NCBI GenBank assembly: GCA_030700225.1
Contig: JAUYJT010000030.1
Coordinates: 453 to 64,452, forward strand
Source: Candidatus Nanopelagicales bacterium
GTDB lineage: Bacteria; Actinomycetota; Actinomycetes; S36-B12; GCA-2699445
Length of the DNA: 64,000 bases
Direction of reading: 5' to 3'
This document shows positions 15,943-63,705 of the stretch, piece by piece. Both the position numbers and the translations under genes were made by a program. The stretch's first letter is position 1; each line of letters starts with the position of its first letter. The notes beneath the pieces are model-generated. The model was not told the DNA's origin. It ran no database searches and worked only from the letters and a program-made list of their open reading frames with translations.

Positions 15943-17523
15943 ATGTCGAGCAAGGTCCGGGTATTTCCGGAATCTGAGTCCCCTCACGTACCGGTGCCAC
16001 GTGACTCCCCGCTCGCTCAGCCGCTAGCTCAGCCGCTAGCTCAGCCGCTCTCGCGGCCGACGGAGAGCCCGGTCCCAGCCCAGGCCGACTCCCCCACGGC
16101 GAGCGCCCCGACTGCGGAGCCGGACCGGCAGAGCAACCCCGAACTCACACACCCCAGTGCCGTCCAGCGCAAGCGGACCCGGAAGTTGCTTATAGCGGAT
16201 CTCGCTGTCATATGGACGACTGTCGTTGTGCTGCTGCTCCTGTGGGAGCCGTTCCTGCAGATACCGACCGTCGGGTATCACCCTCAGACGTTCATCGCAA
16301 TCGCTCTGATCGTTCTGTGGCCGCTGACGTTGGCCAAGATGCGGGCCTACGCGTCCTGCATCCTCGGCCACGGGCCCGAGGAGTACCGCAGAGTTCTGAT
16401 CGCCAGCGCGATCACTACCGCCATCGTTGGCGCCAGTGCCTATCTCGCCGAGACGGCTGGGGGGCGCAAGTACTTCGGCGCGACGATGCTGCTCGGAACC
16501 TTGGCCCTGCTGGTCACGCGGCATCTCCTGCGCCGCTCGCTCCTGAGGTGGCTGTCTACCGGAGCCCCTCTGCAGCACGTGTTCATAGTCGCCGACGCAC
16601 AGGACAGCGATCGCATCTTCGACGAGATCGGCGACTCCGACGGGCGATTCGCCACAGTGGGCGGATGGAGTCCCGAGGGCTCGGACCTGGACCCCAAGCG
16701 CGTCGTGGAGGCGGCGATCGAGGCTGGCGCTGACAGCATCATCTACTCACCGTCAAGCCACCTGCCCGCGGGCTGGGTCAGGCGTCTCGGGTGGGCGATG
16801 GAAGACACGGAAATGGATCTGATGGTCAACCCATCGCTGATCGAGATCGCCGGTCCACGCTTGTCGATCGCACCCGTCGAGGGACTGCCGCTGCTACGGG
16901 TGGACATGCCGAAGTTCTCCAGACCGACGCGAACCATCAAGCGGGCCACGGACCTCGTGTGGGCCAGCCTTCTGCTCGCGATTCTCGGGATCCCGATGCT
17001 GATCATCGGCCTCGCCATCCGAATCGACAGCCGTGGGCCCGCGATCTTCAGGCAACAGCGCGCCGGACAGGGCGGTAAGACCTTCATCTGCTGGAAGTTC
17101 CGGACCATGGTCGATGGTGCGGACGCCAAGAGGGACGCGCTGCGCGCCGAATTCGGCGACGGCGGCGCGACGTTCAAGATGCGGGACGACCCGCGGGTCA
17201 CGCGGATCGGGAAGTGGCTACGCCATTTCTCGCTCGACGAGCTTCCTCAGCTGATCAACGTTCTGAGAGGTGACATGAGCCTGGTGGGCCCGCGCCCCCA
17301 CCACCTAGATGACCTGGCCCGCTACAGCGGCGATGCCCACCGGCGTCTGCTGATCAAGCCTGGACTTACAGGGCTATGGCAGGTCTCGGGACGCTCGGAC
17401 CTCGGCTGGGAAGAATCGCTGACGCTGGATCTGCACTACATCGAAACCTGGACCCTGTCGCTGGACCTGGTGATCATGATGCGGACCGCGAAGGTTGTCC
17501 TGCTTGGATCCGGGGCCTACTGA
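15943..17523 (+). CDS. polyprenyl glycosylphosphotransferase (WcaJ/CpsE-like priming sugar transferase)
   Basis: N-terminal TM helices; C-terminal KRATD, WKFRTM, DDPRVTRIGK.LR..SLDELPQL.NVL.GDMSLVGPRP and KPGLTGLWQVSGRS. Confidence 0.93.
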   Translation: MSSKVRVFPESESPHVPVPRDSPLAQPLAQPLAQPLSRPTESPVPAQADSPTASAPTAEPDRQSNPELTHPSAVQRKRTRKLLIADLAVIWTTVVVLLLLWEPFLQIPTVGYHPQTFIAIALIVLWPLTLAKMRAYASCILGHGPEEYRRVLIASAITTAIVGASAYLAETAGGRKYFGATMLLGTLALLVTRHLLRRSLLRWLSTGAPLQHVFIVADAQDSDRIFDEIGDSDGRFATVGGWSPEGSDLDPKRVVEAAIEAGADSIIYSPSSHLPAGWVRRLGWAMEDTEMDLMVNPSLIEIAGPRLSIAPVEGLPLLRVDMPKFSRPTRTIKRATDLVWASLLLAILGIPMLIIGLAIRIDSRGPAIFRQQRAGQGGKTFICWKFRTMVDGADAKRDALRAEFGDGGATFKMRDDPRVTRIGKWLRHFSLDELPQLINVLRGDMSLVGPRPHHLDDLARYSGDAHRRLLIKPGLTGLWQVSGRSDLGWEESLTLDLHYIETWTLSLDLVIMMRTAKVVLLGSGAY

Positions 17524-17808
17524 GGGCAATCGCCAAACTTCACACTCGAGCAGCACTGAGTGCCTCAAATTGGGCTGTCCGAGGTATCGACGTGAAGGTC
17601 GGCTCTGGACCTGCCTAGGGCTGCGGGGGCGCGCCGGGAGCTGGCGAACACAGACCGCCCCCTCACGCACACGCCAATCTCCTGCGTAGACGTCGCGGTC
17701 ACATAGCCCGGGCAAGTCGCTCGACCGGGTGCCCAAGAACGTCTGGCCTGTCCGCAAGAGGAACTAGTCGGCTTCATATCCCCGATCAGTCCGACAGTCG
17801 CTGGTCAC

Positions 17809-18978
17809 TCACCTGATTAGGCGGTTGCGGATCCTAGTCGCATTCCACCGAGCTACCCCCTCCGCGAAAGCTCCGCTGGCCCTCGCCAGGGAGTGCTGCG
17901 GCGCCGCCGACTCGCATCCAAGGCGCAGCGCGTCAAGGCGTTGTTGATCTCCCAGCAGTTGGGCGCAGGCGTCCGCGAACTGGCGCGGGGTCACCGATCC
18001 TGGGAGCCAGACGGAGTTGCCCTCGTCCAGGTACTCAGCCTCAGGGGAGTGAGATGCGCCCGTCCGCGTGACAATCGGCACACCGGCCGTGATCGAATCG
18101 ACAGCGACGAGGCCGATCCAACTGGGGATCAGCATCACGTCCGCTGCGGCGAGGGCGAGCGCCTTTCGATCACCCTCTAGCCTGCCAAGGACGCGTAGTG
18201 GCCACCCTGAGGCTTCCAGCTTCTCGGCGTCGGGTCGGCGAACGCCGTCGCCACCAACCAGGAGGCGGAAGCCAGGGCGAATCCCCGATAGCTCCCTGGC
18301 GGTCTCCATCAGGAAGTCGAACCCCTTGGCGTCATCCACACCGCCCAGGAATAGCCCAGTCAAGCCCGGCAACAGGCCATGTGCCTCCCTGAAATCGGCG
18401 AGCGCTTCGGGAGTCACAGCCGCAAGGTCGCGCTGAAGCGACTCAACGTCGATGGTGTTGTTGACCACGGTCACACGAGAGGCGGGGAAGCCGTGCTGGA
18501 CGACATGCCTGGCCCCACCTTCCGTGTAGGCGAAGAACCAGTCGGTCCGACGAGTGAGCCACTGCTTGAACCACGCCGCAGCGCGCCCCTGGGTCGTGGA
18601 GTAGCTCCGGCCGTGTCCGAACATCGCGACCCTGGGACCGTCGAACGGCATAGCGCACAGCAGTCCGCAGGTTTCAACTTCTGACACGCATTGGTTGACG
18701 ATGATCATGTCAGGGCGTAGGCGTCGCATTGACGGCCGGATTAGCTTCCGGGTGACTGCTCTGCCCCCGAGCGTCAGTCGCTGCGTCCGAACTTCTGTCG
18801 CCCAATCGGATGTTCGGTTCTGGTCGCGCGCTATGGCGGATGGACCCAGCTCACCATGGCACACCCTGAAATCGATGTTCTGCTCGGCCAGACGCTTGTG
18901 AATGTCCTCGAACAGCGCCAGGCGGTACTGCGGGAGCGCGGGTTCTATCAGCAGCAGCCTCGCCGTGTTCTGGCCCAT
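17809..18978 (-). CDS. glycosyltransferase family 4
   Basis: GT-B layout: LFLGGVDDAKG, DVMLIPSWIGLVAVDS..AGVP. Confidence 0.8.
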   Translation of the reverse strand: MGQNTARLLLIEPALPQYRLALFEDIHKRLAEQNIDFRVCHGELGPSAIARDQNRTSDWATEVRTQRLTLGGRAVTRKLIRPSMRRLRPDMIIVNQCVSEVETCGLLCAMPFDGPRVAMFGHGRSYSTTQGRAAAWFKQWLTRRTDWFFAYTEGGARHVVQHGFPASRVTVVNNTIDVESLQRDLAAVTPEALADFREAHGLLPGLTGLFLGGVDDAKGFDFLMETARELSGIRPGFRLLVGGDGVRRPDAEKLEASGWPLRVLGRLEGDRKALALAAADVMLIPSWIGLVAVDSITAGVPIVTRTGASHSPEAEYLDEGNSVWLPGSVTPRQFADACAQLLGDQQRLDALRLGCESAAPQHSLARASGAFAEGVARWNATRIRNRLIR

Positions 18979-19078
18979 CAGGGCTATATCCTGCCGGACT
19001 CCCCAGGGCGAGGATCACACGGTGGGCTTGAGTCTCACTTTGCGAGGAAAGAACACCGGCTGCACGCGATGTGTAGGT

Positions 19079-20200
19079 TCAGAACAAGACTTGCTCATAG
19101 AGTGGAATCACACGGTCTTCAGCGTGCTCGCCGAGCGGGTAGCTCGTGGTTCGGGGCCAGCCCTCGCGCCCGAGCTTCGTGAGGTGCGCGGAGAGCTCAG
19201 CCTCGGTCGGCGGATCGCACACTGCGGCTGGCGCGTGCGCTTCAAACTCAGGGATTCCGGGTGGCAGCACGACGCAGCCGTTGGCGCCCATCGCCTCCAG
19301 CGAGGCCCTTGGCATCCCTTCCGACGGTGACACGTTCACGCAACAAGCAGCCTCTTCCATGAGCCCGAGCGCAACCCGGTGCGGAACCGCGCCGACACGC
19401 TTGACCCGGGTGTTCTTCATCAGGGCTCTGGACTCACGCCGGACCCTCTTCATGGGTCCCGCCAGGACAAGATCGTAGCCAGCCAGATCCGTGTCCTGAA
19501 GCCGGTGAAAACTCTTGAGGATTGTGCTGACGCCCTTGTCGTCCTTCAGGGCACCCACATACAACAGGAACGGCCCATGACAACCAACGCGGGCCAAGGC
19601 CCGGGCCGCTCTCTCACGGTCTGGCTTGGGTAGATCAAACATGACCGGGATGTGGTGAGCCGCACTGCGCTGCGCGAGGCCCGCCTCAATCCGATTCACC
19701 ACATTGAGCGAGCAGCACACGACCTCATCGAAGCAATCGAGGAGTGGTATCTGCTCTTCAGGCAGCAGATTGTCCCGAGCATCCGCGACAAGCTTGATCC
19801 CGTCGTCGCGGCACGTCTGCGCATACTTCGGCAGGTACATCCGGAACGGGCCGGCCCTGTTCAGCAAGCCGGTGTGAATGAGCACCGAGCGCGGCATGAC
19901 CCTTCGCGTGACGTGACCCAGTCGAAGTAGCTCCAAGTTGTTCAGGGCGTAGAGCGGCGCGTTCCTAGCTACACCCAATTCCACGCTGGACCTGGGAGTG
20001 AGCAGCCCAATGTACTCACTTCCGGGCAAGCCGCTAGCGCCTCTCGGCAGCCGCTCGGACACCACCGTTACTCGGTACCCGCAGTTCACGAGGGCCTTGG
20101 TGAGCAGCGTGTAGTACACGGCGCAACCCCCGCTCCCGAACAGCATCGGGGTCACGACCAGCAGATCGGGACGGCCCGGCCGCTCAGAGAACGCTGTCAC
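19079..20200 (-). CDS. glycosyltransferase family 4
   Basis: LYVGALKDDKG and SPSEGMPRASLEAM (EX7E). Start estimated at GTG 20200. Confidence 0.8.
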   Translation of the reverse strand: MTAFSERPGRPDLLVVTPMLFGSGGCAVYYTLLTKALVNCGYRVTVVSERLPRGASGLPGSEYIGLLTPRSSVELGVARNAPLYALNNLELLRLGHVTRRVMPRSVLIHTGLLNRAGPFRMYLPKYAQTCRDDGIKLVADARDNLLPEEQIPLLDCFDEVVCCSLNVVNRIEAGLAQRSAAHHIPVMFDLPKPDRERAARALARVGCHGPFLLYVGALKDDKGVSTILKSFHRLQDTDLAGYDLVLAGPMKRVRRESRALMKNTRVKRVGAVPHRVALGLMEEAACCVNVSPSEGMPRASLEAMGANGCVVLPPGIPEFEAHAPAAVCDPPTEAELSAHLTKLGREGWPRTTSYPLGEHAEDRVIPLYEQVLF

Positions 20201-21182
20201 GATTCCGCGAGAACCACCCCACGGTTGCGTCAATCCCCTCGGACAGACCAACCTCCGGCTTCCACCCCGTGAGTTGCCGAATCCGAGCGCTGTCCGCAGA
20301 ATTGCGCAAAACCTCTCCTGGGTTCGCGGCAATGCTCGTTAGCTGAGCTCCCCAACCGACGGCAGCACACGCCCCAACCAGCGTCTCCATGATCTGGCGG
20401 ACTTGCGTCTCGACTCCGGTAGACACGTGAAACAACGCCGGGACTTGCCCGCTCGGCAGAGCCATCATCGCGACCAGGGCTGCCACAACATCGTCAACGA
20501 AAATGAAGTCCCGCGTCTGGCTTCCTGAACCGGTGACCCGGATTGGCTCTCCGCTAGCCGCGGCGAGGATTGACCGGGCAACGACGCTGCGCTTGCGATG
20601 GGACCCTGGGCCGTAGATGTTGCTGAACCGAAGCGCCACCGCTCGCATGCCAAATGAGTGGTGGTAGGCGCTGCAGTAGCCCTCGATGGCGAGCTTCGCG
20701 GCACCGTAGGGCGACTCCGGCCTCGGTGTGCTGTCCTCGTCGTAGGGTGGTTCCTGTGTTCCCACCGGGGCTCCGCTGGACGCGCAGAGCACGAGGCCAG
20801 CTCCCACGCTTCGGCCGACTTCGAGCACCTTGACGGCACCCACGACGTTCTCGACGGCGTTGCCAACCGGGTCCGAAATCGAGTCGGCAACTCCTGGAAC
20901 ACCGGCCAAATGCACGATGACATCCGCCGAGTCAGCGCAGCCCCGGAGCCACCCTGCATCGGCAATGTCGCCAACAGCCAGTGAGAGACCACCACTTGCG
21001 GGCCAGTCCGCAGATGCGCCCGAGGGCAACAGGTCGTACTCCAGCCCGCGCAAGTCGAGGTCCCCCGGCTGCCCGACTCGCAGATCATCGATCAGCTTCA
21101 CTGAGAAACCGCCACGTTGGCTCAGCGCGTCAGCAAGCGCGGCTCCAACGAAACCGCATCCCCCGGTAACGAGCACTCTCAC
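20184..21182 (-). CDS. NAD-dependent epimerase/dehydratase (extended SDR)
   Basis: TGGCGFVG, YGAAK, LRFSNIYGP and QTRDFIFVDD. Confidence 0.88.
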   Translation of the reverse strand: MRVLVTGGCGFVGAALADALSQRGGFSVKLIDDLRVGQPGDLDLRGLEYDLLPSGASADWPASGGLSLAVGDIADAGWLRGCADSADVIVHLAGVPGVADSISDPVGNAVENVVGAVKVLEVGRSVGAGLVLCASSGAPVGTQEPPYDEDSTPRPESPYGAAKLAIEGYCSAYHHSFGMRAVALRFSNIYGPGSHRKRSVVARSILAAASGEPIRVTGSGSQTRDFIFVDDVVAALVAMMALPSGQVPALFHVSTGVETQVRQIMETLVGACAAVGWGAQLTSIAANPGEVLRNSADSARIRQLTGWKPEVGLSEGIDATVGWFSRNRDSVL

Positions 21183-21216: not shown

Positions 21217-22380
21217 TCAGGCTCCGCCATCCCACCGGATGCGCGGCAAGATCGCCGCCCGACTCACCTGAATCCGTTCCCTATTCTCTACGAGTCTACG
21301 AAGAGCAATCTGGACGGTTGGACCGATGTCTGGCGTGGGCTTGTAGCCGAGTTCTCTTAGGCGGTCTGTGTCCGGCTTGTAGTAGTGCTCTTGAGCTTCG
21401 ATTCGTGGGTCCTCGATGCTATTGATCTTCACGTCGAGGCCGATCGCCGCCGCCTGTTCCTGCACGATCCCGGCGAGCTCGTTGACCCCAAACACTTGAT
21501 CGAATTGATTGATCACTCGGTACTCGCCCCGCGATGGCGGGTTGTTGATCACCAGGGTCAGGCACTGCATGACATCCTGGAGGGGAAGGAACCCGCGCTT
21601 CTGGTGTCCGGAGCCGTACGGAGTCAGTGGCTGTGAGATCGCGGCTTGAGCGCAGAAGCGGTTGATCACCGTTCCAAAAGCCTCATCGAAATCGAGGCGC
21701 GTGTACAGTCTCTCGTCACCGCCGACCCATTCCGTGTTGGTCCCAAACACAACTCCTTGCATGATGTCTGTGGACCTCAGCCCCCAGATCCGGCACGCGA
21801 AGTTCACGTTGTTGGAGTCGTGGACCTTTGTCTGGTGGTACCAGCTGCCCGCCTCGCGCGGGAACGACAGTGTTGCCTTCCGACCCCGGAACTCGACTTC
21901 GAAGAACCCCTCCGGGATGTCGACGTTAGGCGTCCCGTACTCACCCATCGTTCCCAGCTTCACCAAGTGCGCGTTGGGCACCACGTCCCGCATCGCCCAC
22001 AAGAGGTTGAGGTTGCCGATAACGTTGTTCTGGTGAGTCAGCAAACAATGCTCGCGATCGATCATGCTGAATGGCGCTGAAGGCATCTGGCCCAGCTGAA
22101 CAACGGCTTCTGGCTTGAAATCAGCGAGACATGACTCAACGAACCCATAGTCCTGAAGATCGCCCTCACGGAACGTGATCGAATCCCCTGTCAGTTCCTT
22201 GGCGCCCTGGATTCGCTCTTCCATAGTTGCGATCGGAATAGCTGATTGTGACCCCATCTCAGCCACCAGCCTGCGGCGCAAGAACGAGTCGCAGCCGAAC
22301 ACCTCGTGGCCCGCCGATGTCAGGTGGAGCGCAAGCGGCCACCCAAGATAGCCGTCCAATCCCGATATGAAGATTCTCAT
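21217..22380 (-). CDS. sqdB: UDP-sulfoquinovose synthase
   Basis: GLDGYLGWP, PSAPFSM, HLVKLGTMGEYGTPN.DI.EG, SWYH.TKVHDS, TD.MQGVVFG and RLD.D..FGT.INRF..QA, all SqdB/SQD1 hallmarks. Confidence 0.92.
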   Translation of the reverse strand: MRIFISGLDGYLGWPLALHLTSAGHEVFGCDSFLRRRLVAEMGSQSAIPIATMEERIQGAKELTGDSITFREGDLQDYGFVESCLADFKPEAVVQLGQMPSAPFSMIDREHCLLTHQNNVIGNLNLLWAMRDVVPNAHLVKLGTMGEYGTPNVDIPEGFFEVEFRGRKATLSFPREAGSWYHQTKVHDSNNVNFACRIWGLRSTDIMQGVVFGTNTEWVGGDERLYTRLDFDEAFGTVINRFCAQAAISQPLTPYGSGHQKRGFLPLQDVMQCLTLVINNPPSRGEYRVINQFDQVFGVNELAGIVQEQAAAIGLDVKINSIEDPRIEAQEHYYKPDTDRLRELGYKPTPDIGPTVQIALRRLVENRERIQVSRAAILPRIRWDGGA

Positions 22381-22523
22381 CCTGGCATCGCCTCCCGCCG
22401 TCCTCGTACCTGCCAACTCACGTAGCCAAAGTGCGCTAGGCGGCCAGCCTAGAACATCGACCTGGCCCGGCCACGTCGGGGACGAAGTTGGATTGGAGAC
22501 GCAGGACGTGGCGAACGACTACG

Positions 22524-29454: not shown

Positions 29455-29565
29455 GGGCTCCCTCGGTACATTCGCGCGGGCGGGACACCGTATCTTCGAT
29501 GCAGGCGATCACAACTATGCCCACCGCGTGGCAACATAGACTATCCCGGAGCGAGGTACCACACG

Positions 29566-31902: not shown

Positions 31903-31908
31903 GCATAG

Positions 31909-33708: not shown

Positions 33709-33725
33709 TTTGTTCTGATCGCTAG

Positions 33726-34733: not shown

Positions 34734-34967
34734 GTCTCCACCGCTCCTTTCTCAACCCAGCGCTCGGAACTGATCCTGTTCAGTAGATCGAAAGACAGTT
34801 CCGCTCCGGGCGGATCCTACCCGCAGGCGCTGCCTCCAATCCACGTGCCGACTGGATGCGGCCCAGCCCAACGCGAAGGGACCCCGCGAGATGACTCTGA
34901 CCCGAGCCGGAGGCGGGCGAGGGAGTTCGACTACCATGGGCGATCATCGGCCAACGGAAGAGACGCC

Positions 34968-35630: not shown

Positions 35631-35658
35631 CGGAACTGGCGAACGGTTGGGAATCATC

Positions 35659-45065: not shown

Positions 45066-45066
45066 C

Positions 45067-46943: not shown

Positions 46944-48254
<1,311 letters not shown>

Positions 48255-48267
48255 GGTCAGAACCTCT

Positions 48268-50586: not shown

Positions 50587-50589
50587 GGA

Positions 50590-54129: not shown

Positions 54130-54130
54130 G

Positions 54131-56645: not shown

Positions 56646-56797
56646 TGGACAGCTCCTGATTCTAGACCGTTTGATTGGTGCAAGATCCTACCTGCGGTCG
56701 ATGCGATGCGGTCTCGATCGTGAGGTCGGCCCTTGTCCGCGAGTGTAGCCAAGGCTTCGTCCGAGCGTGGATCGGCTCGACGGTATGCTTGGGCGCC

Positions 56798-57628: not shown

Positions 57629-57693
57629 CAGCGAATCACCCTCCGGTACGTTTGCCTCTCTCGTCGGGTGAGATCGCGAGGCTGGCGTCCTTG

Positions 57694-58467
57694 CTAAGGC
57701 CGATTCGCGCGCATGACCCCAGGTTTCTCAGCGAGTAACGAAACCAGAAGACCGGCGATCGATTCGTGGCCCACCGCACTCAAGTGCGCTCCATCCCGCG
57801 CGAAGTCGGCGGGCGATAGGACCGCTCCCGGGTCCAGGACGGCAACCCGGCCTGCGGCACGACGGGCCAAGTCGCAAGCAGCCGACCTATTGCTTGCCAA
57901 GGCCCCGGGACTCCATGGATAGGTCGCCATCCGATGGAACTGGGGCAAGAGCAGAATGAGCTGGGCATCAGTTTCAGCTTCAAGGCGATCGACCAGCACG
58001 CTCAGATTTTCGCGATACAGCTGGGGCGCCATGAACGGTCGGATTCGGAGAGCTTCGGAGACCCGGTCGCCCAGTGCGCTTCCGGCGACTCGCAAGTAGG
58101 AACGGTAAACCGCACGCCGAGCCCACTGGATCACGCGGAGAAGCCAGCTCCGGTCAGTCACGGGCAGCTCACCATCTGGATGAACACGAAACCTTCGCAG
58201 CGCACGCGGGAACATCAGCATCGCCTCACGCGTCCCGTGGGCGAGAACAACGACGTCCGGCACAAGTGCTTTGACCTCGCTCAATCGGTCAAGGGTGACG
58301 GTGACCATTGCCCCACCGAATACCAGCGCCTCGACTTCCCAACCGACAGGGCCAAGACGAGAACGCGCGATCTCCGGGTATGGATGAGCGCCAACAGCTG
58401 GGTCAATGCCGAACGTTGTAGCGATCGAGTCACCGCAGATTACGAGTCGATTCGGTCGGCCATCCAC
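57694..58467 (-). CDS. SGNH/GDSL hydrolase-fold protein (possible O-acyl esterase or transferase)
   Basis: Block I GDS near the N-terminus and DGAH (DxxH) near the C-terminus. Confidence 0.7.
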   Translation of the reverse strand: MDGRPNRLVICGDSIATTFGIDPAVGAHPYPEIARSRLGPVGWEVEALVFGGAMVTVTLDRLSEVKALVPDVVVLAHGTREAMLMFPRALRRFRVHPDGELPVTDRSWLLRVIQWARRAVYRSYLRVAGSALGDRVSEALRIRPFMAPQLYRENLSVLVDRLEAETDAQLILLLPQFHRMATYPWSPGALASNRSAACDLARRAAGRVAVLDPGAVLSPADFARDGAHLSAVGHESIAGLLVSLLAEKPGVMRANRP

Positions 58468-58612
58468 AGCACCAGGCTAGAGCCACAAACCCTCGCTCGC
58501 GCAGTCGCCACCTTGGATTACGGCCGCACGGCGACCCCGTGCTGACCCGCCCGAAGGAGCAATGCCCACGAGATCCGTGCGTGCTCAGTCCCCCTTCGCG
58601 CCGCGCTTGTGC

Positions 58613-59374
58613 TCAGGATCGACTGCCATGGATGGAATCCCGGGAATCCTGGTCATCGTCTCGGCAAAGGACGGCATCGAACTGCAGCATCACCCCTGTC
58701 GAGCTGTCACAGAACCCGGGTTCGAGGCCGCGCAACCGATAACCTTCGGCCTCCAACCACTCAATAGCCTCCTGCCAATCCCACGCCCCCGCGTATAGCG
58801 GCTCCACTGAGAGCTCTAGCTGAACTGCGACGATTCGGTTCAGCAGCCTTCCGCAACCCGCAAGAACCTGGCGCTCATATCCTTGGACGTCAATCTTCAA
58901 CACTGGCCTGTTGAGGACAAGTTCTCCTGCCGCGACGATCGAATCGAGCCTTCGAACCCTAACGCTCTCCCGTTTGACAACTTTCGCGTCGGGAGCCGCC
59001 TCCACATGGCGGTCCAGCATGTCCACCAGCGAACTGCTCGCGCCCGCGTTCGCCGTGACGTTCAGGTCGGCCGAGCCGTCAAAATCTCCGAGCGCCTCGC
59101 CGCGCACATTCCACTTCTCATCTGTCTCTGCCGAGAGCACGAGATCGCGGCGCGCGGCCTCCCCGGGTTCGAACGACACGATGTCGCCTCCGTACCCGAA
59201 ACTCCTCAGAGTCCGGGCGAATCCACCGTTGTTGGCACCGATGTCGAGCACCATGCCCGGACGGGCCGAGAGCAGCGCGCGGAACAGCACATTGCCTTGC
59301 GTGTCCTGCGGGAACCTGCCTACCTCGAGCCCAACCTTCCGCAAGCGACTCCTCAATCTGGACTTGACTGACAC
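58613..59374 (-). CDS. FkbM family methyltransferase
   Basis: VLDIGANNG.F, SFEP, LKIDVQGYE..VL.G and QFDA. Confidence 0.9.
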   Translation of the reverse strand: MSVKSRLRSRLRKVGLEVGRFPQDTQGNVLFRALLSARPGMVLDIGANNGGFARTLRSFGYGGDIVSFEPGEAARRDLVLSAETDEKWNVRGEALGDFDGSADLNVTANAGASSSLVDMLDRHVEAAPDAKVVKRESVRVRRLDSIVAAGELVLNRPVLKIDVQGYERQVLAGCGRLLNRIVAVQLELSVEPLYAGAWDWQEAIEWLEAEGYRLRGLEPGFCDSSTGVMLQFDAVLCRDDDQDSRDSIHGSRS

Positions 59375-59560
59375 GGCTCACCTTGATCGCACTCTGGGGG
59401 GACGACTACACCCAGGGACCGTATCACCCAGACAACGGGCTCTCGGAGTTCAGGCGGCTCGGAAACAGCCTCCGACACAGCGGACCGTTCGGGACCAATT
59501 AGAGTGGGGCGACGAACCCCCCGGGGCTTGTCCAGCACACAGTGGGGAAACCAAGCCGAA

Positions 59561-60700
59561 GTGATTCCTTACGGACGTCAGTCAGTAGACGAAGAAGACG
59601 TTGCGGCTGTCTCGTCAGTCCTGCGCAGCGCCTGGCTGACGACTGGACCCGCAGTCGAGGAGTTCGAATCCGAGCTCGCACGGCAAGTCGGCGCCGCGCA
59701 ATGTGTATCCGTGACATCAGGCACGGCGGCGCTCCACTGCGCGTACACCGCAGGAGCCATCGGTCCGGGCGATGAGGTAATCACGCCACCCCTAACGTTT
59801 GTTGCCACGCAGGCCGCAGCAGCTGCGCTCGGCGCCAAGATCAAGTTCGCAGACGTTGAGCCTGATACCGGAAACATCGACCCAGCAGCCGCCGCCGCAC
59901 TCGTTACTCCGCAGACCCGAGCGATCGTTGCAGTCGACTACGCCGGCCATCCGGCGGAGCTCGATGACCTGCGGTCCATCGCCCGCGAGCATGGAATCCT
60001 TCTCATAGAGGACGCAGCACATTCGATCGGATCCTGCTATCGCGGTCGGCCCGTCGGGTCGATCGCGGACCTCACGACGTTCTCGTTCTTCCCGACCAAG
60101 AACATCACAACGGGGGAGGGAGGTGCGGTCGCTACGGCTGATCCGACGCTCGCCCAGCGAGCGAGGTTGTTCCGGAATCACGGCCTGGTGCGGGACTCCA
60201 AGGCTCAGCGCTACCCAGACGAAGGACCATGGCATCAGGAGGTGCATGATTTCGGCCTCAACTACCGGCTGCCGGACATTCTCGCGGCCCTGGGCCTGAG
60301 CCAACTGGACCGCATGGCCGAGTTCAAGAGGCGCCGCGCGGAGATCTTCGGGCTCTACGCGGCGCTGCTCGGCGGCATTGACGACCTAGCTCTCCCGACG
60401 GTTCGGGACCATGTCGACCCAATGTGGCATCTCTTTCCGCTCAGAGTCCCGGCCAGCGAGCGCGCCCGAATCTTCCAAAGTCTGCGTAAGCGTGGCATCG
60501 GCGTGCAAGTGAACTACATGCCTGCGTACTGGCATCCGGTATTCGAGGATCTCGGCTACAAACGTGGGACGTGCCCCAACGCTGAGGCGTACTACCGGGA
60601 GGAGATCTCGCTCCCAATGTTCCCGGGTCTTCGTGATGACGAAGTGCACCGGGTGGCCGACGCTGTCGTCAGCAGCCTAGGAAGACCGGGCGCGTCATGA
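59561..60700 (+). CDS. pseC: UDP-4-amino-4,6-dideoxy-N-acetyl-beta-L-altrosamine transaminase
   Basis: IPYGRQS..EED, LTTGP, DAAHS.G, FSFFPTKNITTGEGG, G.NYRLPD, GVQV.Y.P and ISLPMFP. Confidence 0.85.
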   Translation: MIPYGRQSVDEEDVAAVSSVLRSAWLTTGPAVEEFESELARQVGAAQCVSVTSGTAALHCAYTAGAIGPGDEVITPPLTFVATQAAAAALGAKIKFADVEPDTGNIDPAAAAALVTPQTRAIVAVDYAGHPAELDDLRSIAREHGILLIEDAAHSIGSCYRGRPVGSIADLTTFSFFPTKNITTGEGGAVATADPTLAQRARLFRNHGLVRDSKAQRYPDEGPWHQEVHDFGLNYRLPDILAALGLSQLDRMAEFKRRRAEIFGLYAALLGGIDDLALPTVRDHVDPMWHLFPLRVPASERARIFQSLRKRGIGVQVNYMPAYWHPVFEDLGYKRGTCPNAEAYYREEISLPMFPGLRDDEVHRVADAVVSSLGRPGAS

Positions 60701-61479
60701 GCAAGCCTAGGCAGCGCATCGCGGTCTTCGCAAACAACCGGCTCGGTTTGCGCGTGGTCCGTCATCTCGCCGCTGACCCAGGCACCGAGATCCGCTTGTT
60801 GGTGCTCAATAGCAGACGCCGGGCGTTTGCCAGCGAGATTGCTGAAGCGGCAGGCGCGCATCATCCAGAGGTCTGGGCCGGAGACGAATTGGGCGATCCC
60901 GGCAAGACTGACCAACTCACAAGCATGGGCCTTGACTTCGGCGTTTCCGTATACTTCGGTCATCTGCTCTCGCGCGGCTCCATCCGTGCCTTCCAGAGGG
61001 GCGTCCTGAACCTTCATCCCGCGCTTCTCCCCTTCAACCGCGGTTCGCACCCCGCAGTGTGGGCGATATGGGACGGGACTCCGAATGGGGTGAGCATCCA
61101 CGTCATCGACGAGGGCATCGACACGGGACCAGTCGTAGCTCAGGTGCCCGTTCGCGTCCGCCCGACTGACACGGCTGGCTCGCTCTACCTAAGGAACGAA
61201 GATCGGCTCTTCGATCTGTTCGCCGAGACCTATCCCGCATGGTGCGAAGGCCGAGTGCGGAATGCGAGGGTTTCAGGAGCTGGCAGCTACCACCGGCTCG
61301 CGGATTTCGATCAAGTTGCTAGGGTCACGATGGATGAAGCCACAACCGTTGGGGACTTGATACGGCGGATGCGTGCCGCGACATTTGACGTCGGTGGCGG
61401 GCTGATAATCACTGGGGATCACGGGTGTCGGTATCGGGCCCGGATCTCTATCGCCGAGGAAGAGGATCCGGATGAGTGA
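60697..61479 (+). CDS. sugar N-formyltransferase (N10-formyl-THF dependent)
   Basis: NLHPALLPFNRG.HP, GVSIH.ID..IDTGP, and a short C-terminal domain like VioF/Rv3404c-type formyltransferases. ATGA overlap with pseC. Confidence 0.82.
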   Translation: MSKPRQRIAVFANNRLGLRVVRHLAADPGTEIRLLVLNSRRRAFASEIAEAAGAHHPEVWAGDELGDPGKTDQLTSMGLDFGVSVYFGHLLSRGSIRAFQRGVLNLHPALLPFNRGSHPAVWAIWDGTPNGVSIHVIDEGIDTGPVVAQVPVRVRPTDTAGSLYLRNEDRLFDLFAETYPAWCEGRVRNARVSGAGSYHRLADFDQVARVTMDEATTVGDLIRRMRAATFDVGGGLIITGDHGCRYRARISIAEEEDPDE

Positions 61480-62563
61480 AATAGGGCGTCGGCAAACCAC
61501 CGAAACCGAGGACCCGCCCCTCATCGTTGCCGAGATTTCTGCCAACCACAACGGAAGCAAGAAGTGCTTCCTGGACTTGATCAGGGCAGCCGCAGACAGC
61601 GGAGCTGATCTGGTCAAGTTCCAGACCTACACCGCCGACACGATGACTCTGCCCCTAGACACGCCCCGGTTCCGGATAAGTGATGACCATGGCCTCTGGG
61701 GTGGCATGCGCCTGTACGACCTCTACGAGGCAGCTCACACACCCTGGGAATGGCACGCGGAAGGATTCGAGTTGGCCCGAAGCCTCGGGATCGACGCCTT
61801 CAGTTCGCCATTTGACAAGACCGCGATCGACTTCCTCGAACAATTCGGCCCTTTCGCGTACAAGATCGCATCGATGGAGATCTCTGATCTGCCACTTATC
61901 TCCTACGCCGCCGGACTGGGTAAGCCAATCGTCATCTCCTCCGGAACGGCCCACACCTCCGAAGTCGCAAGGGCAGTCGAAGTTGCCAGATCGGCTGGCT
62001 CACGCGACATCACGCTGCTCCTGTGCACGAGCTCCTATCCAGCGTCACCAGAAGATGCGAATCTGGTCACGCTTGAGGCATGGCGCGAGGCGTTCGGCGT
62101 CAAGACGGGCCTTTCCGACCACACACTCGGACTCGGCACTTCAATTGCCGCAGTCGCCCTGGGCGCGCGCCTGATCGAGCGTCACGTCACAATCTCCAGA
62201 GCAGAGGGCGGCTTCGACAGTGCCTTCTCACTCGAGCCTCATGAACTGGCGCAGTTGGTATCCGAGTGCCGTGACGCCTGGCTGGCCCTCGGATCTGTGC
62301 GCACCGGGCCTACGAAGTCCGAGTCCGAGTCTCTGCGCCTACGGAGGTCGCTCAACGTCGCAGCCGACGTTAGGGCTGGAGATGCTGTGACCGACTCGGT
62401 TGTGCGCGCTGTTAGGCCTGGTGGAGGGCTCGGGCCTGGTTCCTTGGCCGACATCTTGGGTAGGCGTTTCGCCGTCGATGTTTCTGCGGGTACGCCGATG
62501 TCCTGGGATCTCCTATCCCCCAGGGACAGCGGCCCCGTGCCTCAGATGGACGCGGCTACCTGA
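61472..62563 (+). CDS. pseI: pseudaminic acid synthase (NeuB family)
   Basis: IVAEISANHNGS, VKFQTYT.DT, LY..A.TP.EWH, KIAS.E, C.SSYP, GLSDHTLG, IERH and C-terminal SAF domain. Confidence 0.92.
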   Translation: MSEIGRRQTTETEDPPLIVAEISANHNGSKKCFLDLIRAAADSGADLVKFQTYTADTMTLPLDTPRFRISDDHGLWGGMRLYDLYEAAHTPWEWHAEGFELARSLGIDAFSSPFDKTAIDFLEQFGPFAYKIASMEISDLPLISYAAGLGKPIVISSGTAHTSEVARAVEVARSAGSRDITLLLCTSSYPASPEDANLVTLEAWREAFGVKTGLSDHTLGLGTSIAAVALGARLIERHVTISRAEGGFDSAFSLEPHELAQLVSECRDAWLALGSVRTGPTKSESESLRLRRSLNVAADVRAGDAVTDSVVRAVRPGGGLGPGSLADILGRRFAVDVSAGTPMSWDLLSPRDSGPVPQMDAAT

Positions 62564-63705
62564 GCGCTGAAGGCGTCAGCAACTCGTTCACGCCCGGCAC
62601 CGTCAACGACCCCATACGCGGCGTTGGCCAGGCGATCTCGAAGCTTACCGTTCGAGATGAAGTGCGCAATGCGCTCCGCTAGTGGCCCGAGCTCCGGCTT
62701 GGATCCAGAGTAGTCACCAAGGCCGAAGACCACGCCCGCTGAAGCCAAGGCAGCGTAGGCACCGACCTGATTGTCTGCCAGGGCGAGAGAAGCAGCGGGC
62801 TTCCCGAGACAGCAGATCTCCCAAAGCGTCGTCCCCGCAGCGCTTATCACAGCGTCGGCGCTGGCCAGAAGTGCAGGGAAGTCGAGATCCGGCTCCACGC
62901 ATTCGACTCTCACTGAGCCTGTCTGGACGACGTGCCCAGAGATCTGATCGGATCCGGGAGAAACGACGAGCGCGTCGACGCCCATGTCGCATGCCATGAC
63001 GGCATCAACGACGTGCTTGGTAAGACCTGCGGCGTCGGTTCCACCCAGAGAGATCACGACGCGGGAGGCAGACTCGGCGCACGAAACGTTGGCAGGGCGC
63101 AGCGAGCGAACCGCGTCGGCAACGATCGCGAAGTCCGTGCCGGCCAGCACTTGAGCTAGGGGTTCGGGTACCTCCGGCCACGGCCATGACCGTGCCTCGG
63201 CGCCGAAATTCTGATCGACATACAGGGAGGCAGACTGGCCCCGCGCGGAACCGTCAACGAAAGCCAGAACCGGGACCCGACGAAGGATGGATGCTGAGAC
63301 ATCACTGGGCAGGCTGTACGAGTCGATCACGACCGCATCAAGCTCGGAGCTGCGCATCCATGCCAGGTGATCCGCAGCCGACACCAACCCCGCCACGACC
63401 CGGCAACTCAGCTGCCTGAGCCTGGATCGCGCAAGCGGCACGGCCTCAGCGCTACAGGCAAACTCAACATGCCAGCCCCGAGATATCAGCTCCTCCGCCA
63501 TGCTGGCGCTCCGAAAGGCGTGCCCGACACCGACGTGCGGTCCGACATCGCAGATGACGCCAGCTCTCCCGGCGAAGTGCCCAACCCGCGTGGTCAACCG
63601 GCCCTCCTGGCAACTCCGAGTCGGCCTCAACGCTACCCTGCCGCTCCTCTCGACCCGCGACACCCTGGTAATGCCGTTCCGTGATTGATTTGGCCCGCTG
63701 CTCAA
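62542..63705 (-). CDS. pseG: UDP-2,4-diacylamido-2,4,6-trideoxy-beta-L-altropyranose hydrolase
   Basis: D.G..VG.GH..R, VVIDSY, VDQN, SLGGTD, ISAAGTTLWE, ADNQ and VDG.G..RV. True start probably near 63597. Confidence 0.8.
   Translation of the reverse strand: MSSGPNQSRNGITRVSRVERSGRVALRPTRSCQEGRLTTRVGHFAGRAGVICDVGPHVGVGHAFRSASMAEELISRGWHVEFACSAEAVPLARSRLRQLSCRVVAGLVSAADHLAWMRSSELDAVVIDSYSLPSDVSASILRRVPVLAFVDGSARGQSASLYVDQNFGAEARSWPWPEVPEPLAQVLAGTDFAIVADAVRSLRPANVSCAESASRVVISLGGTDAAGLTKHVVDAVMACDMGVDALVVSPGSDQISGHVVQTGSVRVECVEPDLDFPALLASADAVISAAGTTLWEICCLGKPAASLALADNQVGAYAALASAGVVFGLGDYSGSKPELGPLAERIAHFISNGKLRDRLANAAYGVVDGAGRERVADAFSAQVAASI

What the first reader, a model, noticed from the sequence alone, without database searches (positions are those of the whole stretch)
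15943..63705. Very large mosaic glycan locus predicting an unusually decorated anionic surface polymer
One locus combines sulfoquinovose, pseudaminic acid, fucose, xylose, probable diamino sugars, amide/amidine, formyl, acetyl and methyl modification. I know of no described actinobacterial glycan with this combination. Frequent strand switches, pseudogenes and IS scars indicate assembly from several donors.
Basis: inference. Interest (0 to 1): 0.62.

Follow-up and report, generated by a model that had tools for sequence, protein, structure and literature searches.

The report
Large mosaic surface-polysaccharide gene cluster
A roughly 51-kb gene cluster in a small-genome actinobacterium encodes the parts needed to build, decorate and export a complex acidic surface polysaccharide; the machinery is ordinary, but I found no described bacterial glycan with this sugar mix, in particular a sulfoquinovose-type sugar beside pseudaminic acid.

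Summary
Family models or solved structures support PseB, PseC, PseF, PseI and a divergent PseG. They also support a formyltransferase between pseC and pseI, two WbuX amidotransferases with their own HisH/HisF, Gmd/Fcl, a clear UDP-xylose synthase, an SQD1-type UDP-sulfoquinovose synthase, an AsnB-like amidotransferase and a Gfo/DegT/GNAT amino-sugar cassette. There are also six methyltransferases and about eight glycosyltransferases. A priming phosphotransferase, a Wzy-like polymerase and a PglK/MsbA-like ABC protein complete the machinery. A Wzc-like kinase and DUF4012 lie just past the window end, so the locus spans about 51.5 kb. The genome is actinobacterial (4 WhiB genes) and has no flagellin.

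Three gene remnants exist: a decayed pseF, a decayed GT-B gene and a wbuX stub. I found no IS or transposase remnant or repeat copy. Strand switching is no more frequent than in the rest of the genome.

Two uncharacterised loci elsewhere share most of the modules. They lack the sulfoquinovose block, which here lies between two genes that are adjacent in family relatives. Mosaic origin is therefore partly supported, by cassette exchange. No donor can be named.

Verdict: an ordinary Wzy/Wzc-type system with an unusual predicted product. I could not test expression.

The parts
15910..17523 (+). Priming polyprenyl-phosphate glycosyl-1-phosphate transferase (4 TM segments plus a Bac_transf domain)
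   Evidence: PF02397 at 216 bits. TIGR03025 EPS_sugtrans at 362 bits, cut-off 295.6. Orthologues in family relatives are 47-55% identical.
17809..20332 (-). Two GT4 glycosyltransferases (17809-18978 and 19079-20332); candidate sulfosugar transferases
   Evidence: Glycos_transf_1 and Glyco_trans_1_4. No similarity to cyanobacterial SqdX.
20184..21182 (-). SDR nucleotide-sugar 4-epimerase-like enzyme, 34 bp downstream of sqdB
   Evidence: PF01370. The best PDB hits are UDP-hexose, UDP-GlcNAc and UDP-GlcA 4-epimerases at 130-144 bits. A homologous SDR (35-38% identity) also directly follows SqdB in L042 and L045.
21217..22416 (-). UDP-sulfoquinovose synthase (SqdB/SQD1/Agl3 type)
   Evidence: NF041015 at 532 bits, cut-off 575. 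388 bits over the full length of SQD1 (1I24/1QRR), with KLGTMGEYG and Y-H-x-x-K conserved (residues as given in PMC4388408).
22524..26588 (.). GT2 (22524-23381, minus), Methyltransf_24 (23475-24446, minus), conserved unknown 484 aa (24320-25774, minus), FkbM methyltransferase (25755-26588, plus)
   Evidence: The GT2 is 54% identical to the GT2 of L105. The 484-aa protein has only 5 homologues besides itself in the 5.8-billion-protein search.
26661..27593 (-). UDP-glucuronate decarboxylase (UDP-xylose synthase)
   Evidence: 421 bits to human UXS1; the next PDB family scores 145. It is 74-77% identical to, and adjacent to the priming transferase in, family relatives G010 and G005.
27674..28510 (-). 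WecG/TagA/CpsF-family glycosyltransferase (the ManNAc/ManNAcA-transferase type)
   Evidence: PF03808 at 162 bits. TIGR00696 at 118 bits, cut-off 69.
28507..30549 (.). GDP-L-fucose pathway: Fcl (28507-29454, minus) and Gmd (29566-30549, plus)
   Evidence: Gmd: TIGR01472 at 508 bits, cut-off 415. Fcl: NF047922 at 446 bits, cut-off 500. 81% and 66% identical to L105; 76% and 65% to L103.
30661..34493 (.). GT-like 413 aa (30661-31902, plus), AsnB-like glutamine amidotransferase (31909-33708, plus), unknown 255 aa (33726-34493, minus)
   Evidence: PF00733 plus GATase_7. 65% and 59% identical to L103. Gene calls.
34719..36531 (+). Two methyltransferases: Methyltransf_24-like (34719-35630) and Methyltransf_11 (35659-36531)
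36594..37883 (+). Wzy_C-type polymerase (or ligase), polytopic membrane protein
   Evidence: PF04932 at 31 bits, cut-off 31.7. The crude hydropathy scan lists 7 partly overlapping hydrophobic segments. 52% identical to a protein in the same position in L104.
37880..38863 (-). PseB (inverting UDP-GlcNAc 4,6-dehydratase)
   Evidence: TIGR03589 at 480 bits, cut-off 408.
38948..40882 (-). Fused TMD-NBD ABC protein (MsbA/PglK/HepA-like); candidate flippase or exporter
   Evidence: PF00005. HepA 245 bits, MsbA 235 bits and PglK 190 bits, all below their cut-offs. Several overlapping hydrophobic segments.
41423..42382 (+). GT4 glycosyltransferase
   Evidence: 54% identical to L103.
42479..43223 (-). 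Pseudogene of the GT-B family protein (frameshifted)
   Evidence: Gene callers split it into 95-aa and 169-aa ORFs.
43249..46035 (-). Amino-sugar cassette: GNAT (43249-43800), DegT aminotransferase (43800-45065), Gfo/Idh/MocA oxidoreductase (45067-46035)
   Evidence: Collinear with the intact PseF-GFO-DegT-GNAT::GT-B cassettes of L104 and L106 at 47-74% identity.
46041..46497 (-). pseF pseudogene
   Evidence: tblastn with the intact PseF gives pieces in three frames, an in-frame stop and loss of residues about 125-207.
46944..49763 (-). Class III aminotransferase (46944-48254), aldo/keto reductase (48268-49173), GNAT (49170-49763; weak PseH-like match)
   Evidence: The aminotransferase plus reductase pair recurs beside Pse genes in L104 and L042.
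49846..50586 (+). PseF (CMP-pseudaminic acid synthetase)
   Evidence: TIGR03584 at 264 bits, cut-off 206.
50590..51495 (-). GT-B-fold protein of a family without a Pfam model: candidate UDP-sugar 2-epimerase or hydrolase, or nonulosonate transferase
   Evidence: 929 representative homologues. Invariant D29, G31, D109, W111, H223, P224 and G264. AlphaFold2 pLDDT 92.5. Foldseek top hits are UDP-GlcNAc 2-epimerases, NeuC and a WbpI-like enzyme at E about 1e-7 and TM about 0.6.
51495..55255 (-). Amidine module: WbuX-1 (51495-52733), HisF-like (52730-53497), HisH-like (53497-54129), WbuX-2 (54131-55255)
   Evidence: TIGR03573 at 290 and 249 bits, cut-off 203. HisH/HisF family hits. The housekeeping hisH/hisF lie on contig C25 and are 32-33% identical.
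55635..59374 (.). Unknown 325-336 aa protein with weak GT-B-like similarity (55635-56645, minus), FkbM methyltransferase (56720-57628, plus), GDSL/SGNH protein (57694-58467, minus), FkbM methyltransferase (58613-59374, minus)
   Evidence: 51-67% identical to L103.
59504..62563 (+). pseC (59504-60700), formyltransferase (60697-61479), pseI (61472-62563); overlapping, so probably translationally coupled
   Evidence: PseC 425 bits (cut-off 423.5), PseI 421 bits (cut-off 340), PF00551 at 82 bits. The same three-gene order occurs in L104.
62542..63597 (-). Divergent PseG-like UDP-sugar hydrolase
   Evidence: TIGR03590 at 126.5 bits, cut-off 153.6, covering model positions 7-276 of 280.
63687..63809 (+). 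5' stub (41 aa) of a third wbuX gene
   Evidence: 68% identical to residues 3-43 of the L106 WbuX; the similarity then stops.

Best explanation
This is one very large (about 51.5 kb, about 46 genes) surface-polysaccharide biosynthesis locus of an actinobacterium. It is lipid-linked and of the Wzy/Wzc type.

Proposed mechanism:
1. The priming transferase puts a sugar-1-phosphate on polyprenyl phosphate.
2. About eight glycosyltransferases extend a large repeat unit. They are three GT4, one GT2, one WecG-type, one or two GT-B-like orphans and one GT1-like.
3. The PglK/MsbA-like ABC protein flips or exports the unit. No Wzx is present.
4. The Wzy_C protein polymerises it, and a Wzc-like tyrosine kinase/co-polymerase controls chain length.
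5. The product is released as a capsule or EPS, or is fixed to peptidoglycan by one of the four LCP ligases encoded elsewhere.

Precursor pathways encoded in the locus:
- CMP-pseudaminic acid (PseB, PseC, PseG-like, PseI, PseF). Its N7 is probably formylated, because the formyltransferase sits where pseH normally sits. Its N5 acetyl is probably converted to acetamidino by WbuX with HisH/HisF.
- UDP-sulfoquinovose, or its 4-epimer (SqdB plus the adjacent SDR).
- GDP-L-fucose (Gmd, Fcl).
- UDP-xylose (UXS).
- A 3-amino, probably 2,3-diacetamido, sugar (Gfo, DegT, GNAT and a 2-epimerase-like GT-B protein).

Decorating enzymes: an AsnB-like enzyme would amidate a carboxylate, and six methyltransferases and a GDSL enzyme would decorate the chain.

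Basis of each step:
- Shown by family or structure matches: the enzyme identities.
- Inferred: substrates, order of assembly, polymer structure and site of attachment.

Origin: the locus was built by exchange of cassettes among related loci, plus insertion of a sulfosugar block. It was not built by IS elements.
For: -
- Pathway machinery: the priming transferase is over its cut-off. Wzy_C and the ABC protein are present. The Wzc-like tyrosine autokinase (TIGR01007 at 162 bits, cut-off 108) and DUF4012 lie on the identical contig L081 just past the window end.
- Host: 4 WhiB genes, no flagellin, and 4 LCP genes elsewhere. Pse therefore does not serve flagellin glycosylation.
- All pathway genes I checked against the genome are single-copy. 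The locus HisH/HisF are paralogues of the housekeeping pair.
- Coherence: two independent loci carry the same building blocks together. These are the Pse genes, the pseC-formyltransferase-pseI order, the aminotransferase plus reductase pair, the GFO-DegT-GNAT::GT-B cassette, WbuX-HisH-HisF, Gmd/Fcl, WecG, AsnB, Wzy, ABC, Wzc and DUF4012.
- About 43 genes have full-length domain matches, while the three redundant copies have decayed. That pattern fits selection on the intact genes.
- Mosaic origin is supported.
Against:
- No Wzx is present, and the ABC protein scores below every curated cut-off.
- Wzy_C scores just under the Pfam cut-off. That family also contains ligases and O-oligosaccharyltransferases.
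- SqdB, Fcl and PseG score somewhat below their equivalog cut-offs.
- The UDP-sugar 6-dehydrogenases needed for UDP-GlcA lie outside the locus.
- About eight glycosyltransferases would give an unusually large repeat unit, so two glycans could be made.
- The role of the GT-B protein is unresolved among epimerase, hydrolase and transferase.
Confidence: 0.8

Rival explanations
1. Two or more separate glycoconjugate systems lie side by side. One example: the sulfosugar/xylose/fucose block makes one polymer, and the pseudaminic-acid block makes a second polymer or a protein O-glycan. The O-glycan would be transferred by the Wzy_C protein acting as a PglL-like oligosaccharyltransferase.
For: About eight glycosyltransferases and five or more precursor pathways are many for one repeat unit. 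PF04932 covers polymerases, ligases and O-oligosaccharyltransferases, and the match is marginal. The related loci L103-L106 work without the sulfosugar block. The closest characterised sugar palette, that of Tannerella forsythia, is a protein O-glycan (PMC6120980).
Against: Only one priming transferase, one Wzy_C protein, one ABC protein and one Wzc are present. The modules are interleaved rather than laid out as two complete sets. A Wzc-type co-polymerase points to polymer export.
Confidence: 0.15
2. SqdB with a neighbouring GT4 makes the membrane sulfolipid SQDG. This would be a phosphate-sparing lipid, as in cyanobacteria, and the block is merely adjacent to the glycan locus.
For: SqdB is 49-51% identical to cyanobacterial SqdB proteins whose genes lie next to sqdX. 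SqdX is a GT4 enzyme, and two GT4 genes lie downstream in the same gene run.
Against: Neither GT4 resembles SqdX. The best SqdX-like hit anywhere in the genome is a generic 28% match. The block is enclosed between the priming transferase and UXS, which are neighbours in family relatives. It also holds a GT2 shared with the L105 glycan locus and methyltransferases. In L042, L045, L027 and L030 the SqdB gene lies among glycan genes.
Confidence: 0.07
3. The locus is partly a decaying or silent relic. Some modules are no longer used, so the predicted composition overstates the real glycan.
For: Three gene remnants are present. The amino-sugar cassette has lost both of its end genes. GC3 is below the genome median in 41 of 44 ORFs. 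No expression evidence is available.
Against: Every other gene is intact with full-length domain coverage. The decayed genes each have an intact paralogue (PseF, GT-B, and WbuX twice), which is the pattern expected of redundancy loss after cassette exchange.
Confidence: 0.1

Closest known systems
Uncharacterised loci L103/L106 (Logan SRR22387875 contig 42128) and L104/L105 (GCA_040960375.1, JBFOMN010000165.1)
   Same: They share 45-81% identical PseB/C/I/F, the pseC-formyltransferase-pseI order, the class III aminotransferase plus reductase pair, the PseF-GFO-DegT-GNAT::GT-B cassette, WbuX-HisH-HisF, Gmd/Fcl, WecG, AsnB, Wzy, ABC, Wzc and DUF4012.
   Different: In the parts I fetched, neither has the SqdB block, UXS, this priming transferase or the PseG-like gene. 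Their cassettes are intact and single-copy, and they carry a UDP-sugar dehydrogenase beside WecG. Neither locus has been studied.
Tannerella forsythia general protein O-glycosylation cluster (27 kb; PMC6120980)
   Same: pseBCFHGI, asnB, several glycosyltransferases and three methyltransferases lie in one locus, together with ManNAcA supply genes. The glycan combines Pse5Am, Fuc, Xyl, a uronamide and O-methyl groups. The cluster content is from the paper; the full sugar list is partly from my memory.
   Different: It belongs to Bacteroidota and makes a protein O-glycan. It uses a Wzx flippase and has no Wzy or Wzc. It has no sulfosugar, no formyltransferase and no WbuX/HisH/HisF.
Pseudomonas aeruginosa O5 B-band O-antigen cluster (wbpA-wbpM with hisH2, hisF2 and wbpG; from memory)
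   Same: The logic matches: Gfo-type oxidoreductase (WbpB), DegT aminotransferase (WbpE), N-acetyltransferase (WbpD) and 2-epimerase (WbpI). A WbuX-family amidotransferase with dedicated HisH/HisF then makes an acetamidino diamino-uronic acid. The pathway is Wzy-dependent.
   Different: Here the acetyltransferase is a GNAT. The putative epimerase belongs to a family without a Pfam model, and its role is unproven. No WbpA-type dehydrogenase lies in the locus.
UDP-sulfoquinovose synthases SQD1/SqdB (sulfolipid) and Agl3 (Sulfolobus N-glycan; PMC4388408)
   Same: The protein aligns over its full length with the catalytic residues conserved. As with Agl3, the gene lies in a glycan context rather than a lipid context.
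   Different: There is no SqdX or SQD2 partner. The host is a bacterium and the setting is a polysaccharide locus. An adjacent 4-epimerase-like SDR may change the product. I found no report of a sulfoquinovose-containing bacterial polysaccharide in the paper library.
Pse-containing capsule loci of Acinetobacter baumannii and Pse-containing 'teichulosonic acids' of Kribbella cell walls (from memory)
   Same: Pseudaminic acid is a component of a surface polymer rather than of flagellin. In Kribbella this occurs in an actinobacterium.
   Different: Those polymers are much simpler. As far as I know, no genetics has been described for the actinobacterial ones.

Membership tests
Wzx/Wzy-dependent polysaccharide pathway | Initiating polyprenyl-phosphate sugar-phosphate transferase | tested here: met
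   TIGR03025 at 362 bits, cut-off 295.6.
Wzx/Wzy-dependent polysaccharide pathway | Wzy polymerase | tested here: inconclusive
   PF04932 at 31.0 bits, cut-off 31.7; several hydrophobic segments. The family also includes ligases and O-oligosaccharyltransferases.
Wzx/Wzy-dependent polysaccharide pathway | Wzx (MOP-family) flippase | tested here: not met
   No Polysacc_synt/MOP-type protein among the ORFs scanned. The only other polytopic protein is a PglK/MsbA-like ABC protein. The related loci show the same arrangement.
Wzx/Wzy-dependent polysaccharide pathway | PCP/BY-kinase (Wzc-like) co-polymerase | tested here: met
   L081:12555-14057, just past the window end: TIGR01007 at 162 bits, cut-off 108.
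CMP-pseudaminic acid pathway (PseB-C-H-G-I-F) | PseB, PseC, PseI and PseF over their equivalog cut-offs | tested here: met
   480 bits (cut-off 408), 425 (423.5), 421 (340) and 264 (206).
CMP-pseudaminic acid pathway (PseB-C-H-G-I-F) | PseG UDP-sugar hydrolase | tested here: inconclusive
   126.5 bits, cut-off 153.6, but covering nearly the whole model.
CMP-pseudaminic acid pathway (PseB-C-H-G-I-F) | PseH N-acetyltransferase | tested here: not met
   The best GNAT scores 24 bits, cut-off 93. A formyltransferase lies between pseC and pseI instead, and the same holds in L104.
UDP-sulfoquinovose synthase (SQD1/SqdB/Agl3) | Equivalog-level sequence match and full-length alignment to SQD1 | tested here: inconclusive
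   532 bits, cut-off 575. 388 bits over residues 13-395 against SQD1. 49-51% identical to cyanobacterial SqdB.
UDP-sulfoquinovose synthase (SQD1/SqdB/Agl3) | Catalytic Thr/Tyr/Lys and the Met-x-Glu-Tyr residues shown to be essential in Agl3 | tested here: met
   KLGTMGEYG and SWYHQTK in the alignment; residue roles from PMC4388408.
SQDG sulfolipid pathway | SqdX/SQD2-type SQDG synthase partner | tested here: not met
   No SqdX orthologue in the locus or the genome; the best hit is 28% identical.
GDP-L-fucose pathway | Gmd plus Fcl | tested here: met
   Gmd at 508 bits (cut-off 415). Fcl at 446 bits (cut-off 500), near full length.
UDP-xylose synthase (UXS) | Specific similarity to characterised UDP-glucuronate decarboxylases | tested here: met
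   421 bits to human UXS1 over 307 residues; other SDR families score at most 145.
WbuX/WbuY/WbuZ (PseA/WbpG-type) acetamidino formation | WbuX-family amidotransferase with dedicated HisH and HisF paralogues | tested here: met
   TIGR03573 at 290 and 249 bits, cut-off 203. HisH at 164 bits; HisF-like/WbuZ at 114 bits, below its cut-off of 300. The housekeeping copies lie elsewhere.
WbpB/E/D/I-type 2,3-diacetamido sugar pathway | Oxidoreductase, aminotransferase, N-acetyltransferase and 2-epimerase acting on a UDP-GlcNAc(A) substrate | tested here: inconclusive
   Gfo, DegT and GNAT are present and collinear with a GT-B gene. The GT-B fold is closest to 2-epimerases, but TM is only about 0.6 and there is no sequence-level family match. 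The substrates are untested.
IS-mediated mosaic island | Transposase or IS remnants, or repeats shared with other genome sites | tested here: not met
   blastn of the window and tblastx of the intergenic gaps against the genome found none inside the locus. No ORF submitted to Pfam matched a transposase or integrase family.

The most novel reading that the evidence does not exclude
The locus makes a bacterial polysaccharide that contains sulfoquinovose, or a derivative made by the conserved SqdB plus 4-epimerase-like SDR pair, such as 6-sulfo-6-deoxygalactose. To my knowledge this would be the first such polysaccharide. The same repeat unit would carry a doubly modified pseudaminic acid (7-formamido, 5-acetamidino). 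The result would be a carbon-bound sulfonate on a zwitterionic cell-surface polymer of a Gram-positive bacterium. The GT-B family without a Pfam model (about 929 representatives) would be a new nucleotide-sugar enzyme or nonulosonate transferase family tied to this chemistry.
Probability: 0.35. Interest if true: 0.7.

Novelty: new variant of a known kind. Interest (0 to 1): 0.45.

Why it matters
Sulfoquinovose is produced on a very large scale. In bacteria it is known essentially as a lipid head group, and outside lipids it is known from archaeal N-glycans. A bacterial wall or capsule polymer carrying it would be a new reservoir of organosulfur and a new kind of anionic surface chemistry. That could bear on phage recognition, metal binding and resistance to desiccation.

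The locus, with its two relatives, also defines a recurring 'super-module' for decorated pseudaminic acid in actinobacteria. This module includes three protein families with no assigned function. The practical value is as a target list for glycan chemistry and enzyme assays.

The export and polymerisation machinery itself is conventional.

Tried and rejected
- IS scars: blastn of the window and tblastx of all intergenic gaps against the whole genome found only the three internal gene remnants and no IS. Rejected.
- tRNA-linked island: the only tRNA (Gly) lies 6 kb upstream, behind fadB/fadA. Rejected.
- Flagellin glycosylation as the role of Pse: the genome has no flagellin. Rejected.
- Sulfolipid role: there is no SqdX orthologue. 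Kept only as a minor rival.
- Naming a donor for SqdB: the best identities are 61-62% (Anaerolineae) and 50-58% (other actinobacterial classes). In a FastTree tree it is a lone branch, sister to a clade of 48 sequences from mixed phyla. No donor could be named.
- Close relatives in metagenome contigs, searched with the priming transferase: nothing above 50% identity.
- Sequence searches of PDB with five unknown proteins and with the GT-B profile found nothing significant.
- The fold search for the 325-aa unknown gave only weak GT-B-like hits, with TM about 0.3.
- Strand switching as a signal of mosaicism: it equals the genome background.
- ORF 40898-41548 (216 aa) is not a gene by the collection's gene calls. 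It lies in a 540-bp divergent intergenic region.

Full report
SETTING. The window is nearly the whole of contig C3 of a 2.6-Mb assembly (85 contigs, GC 64.8%, 95.7% complete). The genome has four WhiB genes and is therefore actinobacterial. It has no flagellin gene and four LCP ligase genes on other contigs. A second public assembly (GCA_034376245.1, a 129-kb contig) is 100% identical over the last 12.5 kb of the window. It shows what follows the window end.

WHAT IS THERE. I scanned every long ORF from 15.9 to 64 kb against Pfam and NCBIfam. I also used the gene calls stored for the identical contigs.

The locus starts with a polyprenyl-phosphate glycosylphosphotransferase at 15910-17523 (TIGR03025, 362 bits, cut-off 296).

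A seven-gene minus-strand run follows: a 484-aa unknown, Methyltransf_24, GT2, SqdB, an SDR, GT4 and GT4. An FkbM methyltransferase lies on the other strand.

Next come these genes, in order:
- UXS, a WecG/TagA-family transferase, Fcl and Gmd.
- A GT-like protein, an AsnB-like amidotransferase and a 255-aa unknown.
- Two methyltransferases, a Wzy_C protein, PseB, a fused ABC protein of the MsbA/PglK/HepA type, and a GT4.
- A decayed GT-B gene, GNAT, DegT, Gfo/Idh/MocA and a decayed pseF.
- A class III aminotransferase, an aldo/keto reductase, a GNAT and PseF.
- An intact GT-B protein, WbuX, HisF-like, HisH-like and a second WbuX.
- A 325-aa unknown, FkbM, a GDSL protein and FkbM.
- pseC, a formyltransferase and pseI.
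- A divergent PseG and a 41-aa wbuX stub.

Past the window end the identical contig adds a Wzc-like tyrosine autokinase/co-polymerase (TIGR01007, 162 bits, cut-off 108) and a DUF4012 protein. Unrelated genes (DAO, PPK2) follow. The locus is thus about 51.5 kb with about 46 genes.

HOW FIRM ARE THE SUGAR ASSIGNMENTS.
- PseB, PseC, PseF, PseI and Gmd pass their equivalog cut-offs, and both WbuX copies pass the subfamily cut-off.
- UXS scores 421 bits against human UXS1 and at most 145 against any other solved SDR.
- The SqdB-like protein is just under its NCBIfam cut-off (532 vs 575). It aligns over its full length with Arabidopsis SQD1 (388 bits). It keeps the Thr/Tyr/Lys triad and the Met-x-Glu-Tyr residues that mutagenesis of Agl3 showed to be needed (PMC4388408). 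It is 49-51% identical to cyanobacterial SqdB.
- Fcl (446 vs 500) and PseG (126.5 vs 153.6) fall below their cut-offs but cover nearly the whole model.
- No PseH is recognisable. A formyltransferase overlaps both pseC and pseI, and the same three-gene order occurs in an independent locus. The amine made by PseC becomes N7 of Pse (pathway knowledge), so a 7-formamido Pse is the natural prediction.
- Two WbuX amidotransferases share one dedicated HisH/HisF pair. The housekeeping hisH/hisF lie on C25 and are 32-33% identical.
- The SDR next to sqdB resembles nucleotide-sugar 4-epimerases most closely. A homologous SDR also directly follows SqdB in loci of a Rhodospirillales MAG and an Acidobacteriota MAG. 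The product may therefore be an epimer of UDP-sulfoquinovose.

THE UNKNOWNS.
- The 301-aa protein at 50590-51495 has about 929 representative homologues but no Pfam or NCBIfam model. Some homologues carry an N-terminal GNAT domain. AlphaFold2 gives a confident GT-B fold (pLDDT 92.5). Foldseek places it nearest to UDP-GlcNAc 2-epimerases, NeuC and a UDP-2,3-diacetamido-GlcA 2-epimerase (E about 1e-7, TM about 0.6). LpxB, TagF, PseG and a polysialyltransferase rank a little lower.
- In two other genomes it is the last gene of an intact cassette, PseF-Gfo-DegT-GNAT::GT-B. Read as oxidoreductase, aminotransferase, acetyltransferase and epimerase, this mirrors the WbpB/E/D/I route to 2,3-diacetamido-mannuronic acid (from memory). 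It would also give the WecG-type transferase and the second WbuX a substrate.
- A role as UDP-sugar hydrolase or as the Pse transferase is not excluded. An invariant His-Pro pair and one weak polysialyltransferase match point that way.
- The 325-aa protein at 55635-56645 has 19 homologues besides itself and only faint GT-B-like similarity.
- The 484-aa protein has five homologues besides itself.

PSEUDOGENES, YES; IS SCARS, NO. The two large 'gaps' of the locus are decayed genes.
- 46041-46497 (minus strand) is a pseF paralogue in three frames. It has an in-frame stop and has lost about 83 residues.
- 42479-43223 (minus strand) is a frameshifted paralogue of the GT-B gene.
- These two remnants are the first and last genes of the cassette that is intact in L104 and L106. 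They are at least as similar to those orthologues as the intact copies are: 54-57% vs 42-44% for the GT-B gene, and 50-66% vs 59-60% for pseF.
- A third remnant at 63687-63809 (plus strand) matches residues 3-43 of the L106 WbuX at 68%, whereas the two intact WbuX proteins are only 28-32% identical to it.
- These are scars of cassette replacement.
- Nothing inside the locus is repeated elsewhere in the genome. No transposase or integrase was seen, and no tRNA flanks the locus.
- The REP-like palindromes at 13531-13641 and 15644-15754 lie just outside the locus.

IS IT A MOSAIC.
- In two genomes of the same family the UXS gene (74-77% identical) lies directly beside the priming transferase (47-53%), and nothing else of the locus is shared. 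Here the 9-kb sulfosugar block lies between them, and UXS is inverted.
- PseI passes its cut-off in 0 of 15 family genomes and in 4 of 45 other genomes of the order. A strong SqdB match occurs in 0 of 15 and 1 of 45.
- Across 400 sampled genomes of the phylum, 98 have a strong SqdB match; none of the same-class genomes shown in the output has one. Ten have PseI. Only one has both, on different contigs.
- 41 of 44 ORFs have GC3 below the genome median. The exceptions are the priming transferase, Fcl and Gmd, with UXS and WbuX-1 close to the median.
- Against recent multi-donor assembly: the composition shows no sharp steps, outside identities never exceed 81%, and the SqdB is a solitary deep branch.
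- The 16 strand switches (36% of adjacent pairs) equal a crude genome-wide estimate.
- Taken together, the locus looks like an old, repeatedly reshuffled member of a family of related loci. Two such loci (L103/L106 and L104/L105) share most modules. One extra sulfosugar block has been added.

MECHANISM. The most likely reading is a lipid-linked, Wzy/Wzc-type pathway. The priming transferase starts the unit and about eight glycosyltransferases extend it. The ABC protein stands in for Wzx, as it does in the two related loci. Wzy_C polymerises and Wzc regulates. The product becomes a capsule or EPS, or is attached to peptidoglycan by an LCP enzyme. Enzyme identities are shown; all substrates, linkages and the final attachment are inferred. 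The rivals are two separate glycans or a protein O-glycan, an SQDG sulfolipid role for SqdB, and partial silencing. They are weighed in their own sections.

COMPARISON AND NOVELTY.
- The machinery is a known kind.
- The predicted palette has a partial precedent in the Tannerella forsythia O-glycan cluster, which holds pseBCFHGI, asnB, methyltransferases and ManNAcA supply genes (PMC6120980). It also resembles the Pseudomonas aeruginosa O5 cluster (from memory).
- Formylated nonulosonic acids are known (PMC11040635 mentions Pse5Ac7Fo; a 2026 preprint, 10.64898/2026.04.20.719630, reports a formyltransferase in a Leg-type cluster).
- I found no report of sulfoquinovose in a bacterial polysaccharide, nor of SqdB function in actinobacteria. 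The paper library lacks much of the subscription carbohydrate literature.
- Earlier notes of this scan report SqdB-like genes inside glycan loci of several other phyla. I treated these as leads. My own data agree for L042, L045, L027 and L030.
- I rate the locus a new variant of a known kind, of moderate interest.

LIMITS. I could not name the organism below phylum. The gene calls on the left third of the locus are my own.

Noticed in passing
G061-G458 (genome search handles); e.g. L107-L114: Strong SqdB-like genes (E <= 1e-80) occur in 98 of 401 sampled Actinomycetota genomes. None of the same-class genomes shown in the output has one. In the eight loci I fetched there is no SqdX-like gene and none of this locus's genes nearby. 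Their role there (lipid or glycan) is open.
   Followed up: partly
window 50590-51495 (P0001); alignment A1: A GT-B-fold protein family of about 929 representatives has no Pfam, NCBIfam or PDB sequence match. Invariant residues are D29, G31, D109, W111, H223, P224 and G264. Some members carry an N-terminal GNAT domain. It recurs as the last gene of a PseF-Gfo-DegT-GNAT cassette.
   Followed up: partly
L042 (Rhodospirillales MAG CBDUMN010000007.1), about 7.4-21.1 kb: SqdB (57% identical) is followed directly by an SDR, PseB (52%), a PseC-like gene and a reductase. Further on lie the class III aminotransferase (50%) and a PseG-like gene, with a NeuB-like gene upstream. This is a second case of a sulfosugar synthase wired into a pseudaminic-acid locus, in another phylum.
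   Followed up: partly
window 46944-49173; L104 10028-12347; L042 14411-20197: A class III (glutamate-1-semialdehyde-aminomutase-like) aminotransferase and an aldo/keto reductase recur beside Pse genes in three unrelated loci. This suggests an undescribed accessory step of nonulosonic-acid modification.
   Followed up: no
window 13531-13641 and 15644-15754: Two copies of a roughly 110-bp palindromic repeat lie immediately upstream of the priming-transferase gene. The repeat has dozens of copies across the genome, and the two copies bracket a small gene cassette.
   Followed up: partly
window about 27558: An independent assembly of the same sequence (Logan SRR26726065 contig 2118) ends exactly at the UXS/WecG boundary. 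This is the junction between the sulfosugar+UXS part and the rest. It may be chance or may reflect strain heterogeneity there.
   Followed up: no
window 3617-9924: A phage-type integrase, an HTH/Peptidase_M78 gene and a tRNA-Gly(CCC) lie upstream. They are separated from the glycan locus by fadB/fadA (9956-13365) and are not part of it.
   Followed up: no
window 55635-56645 and 24320-25774: Two conserved soluble proteins have no family assignment and very few homologues: 19 and 5 besides the query in 5.8 billion sequences. Both are confined to glycan-locus contexts.
   Followed up: partly
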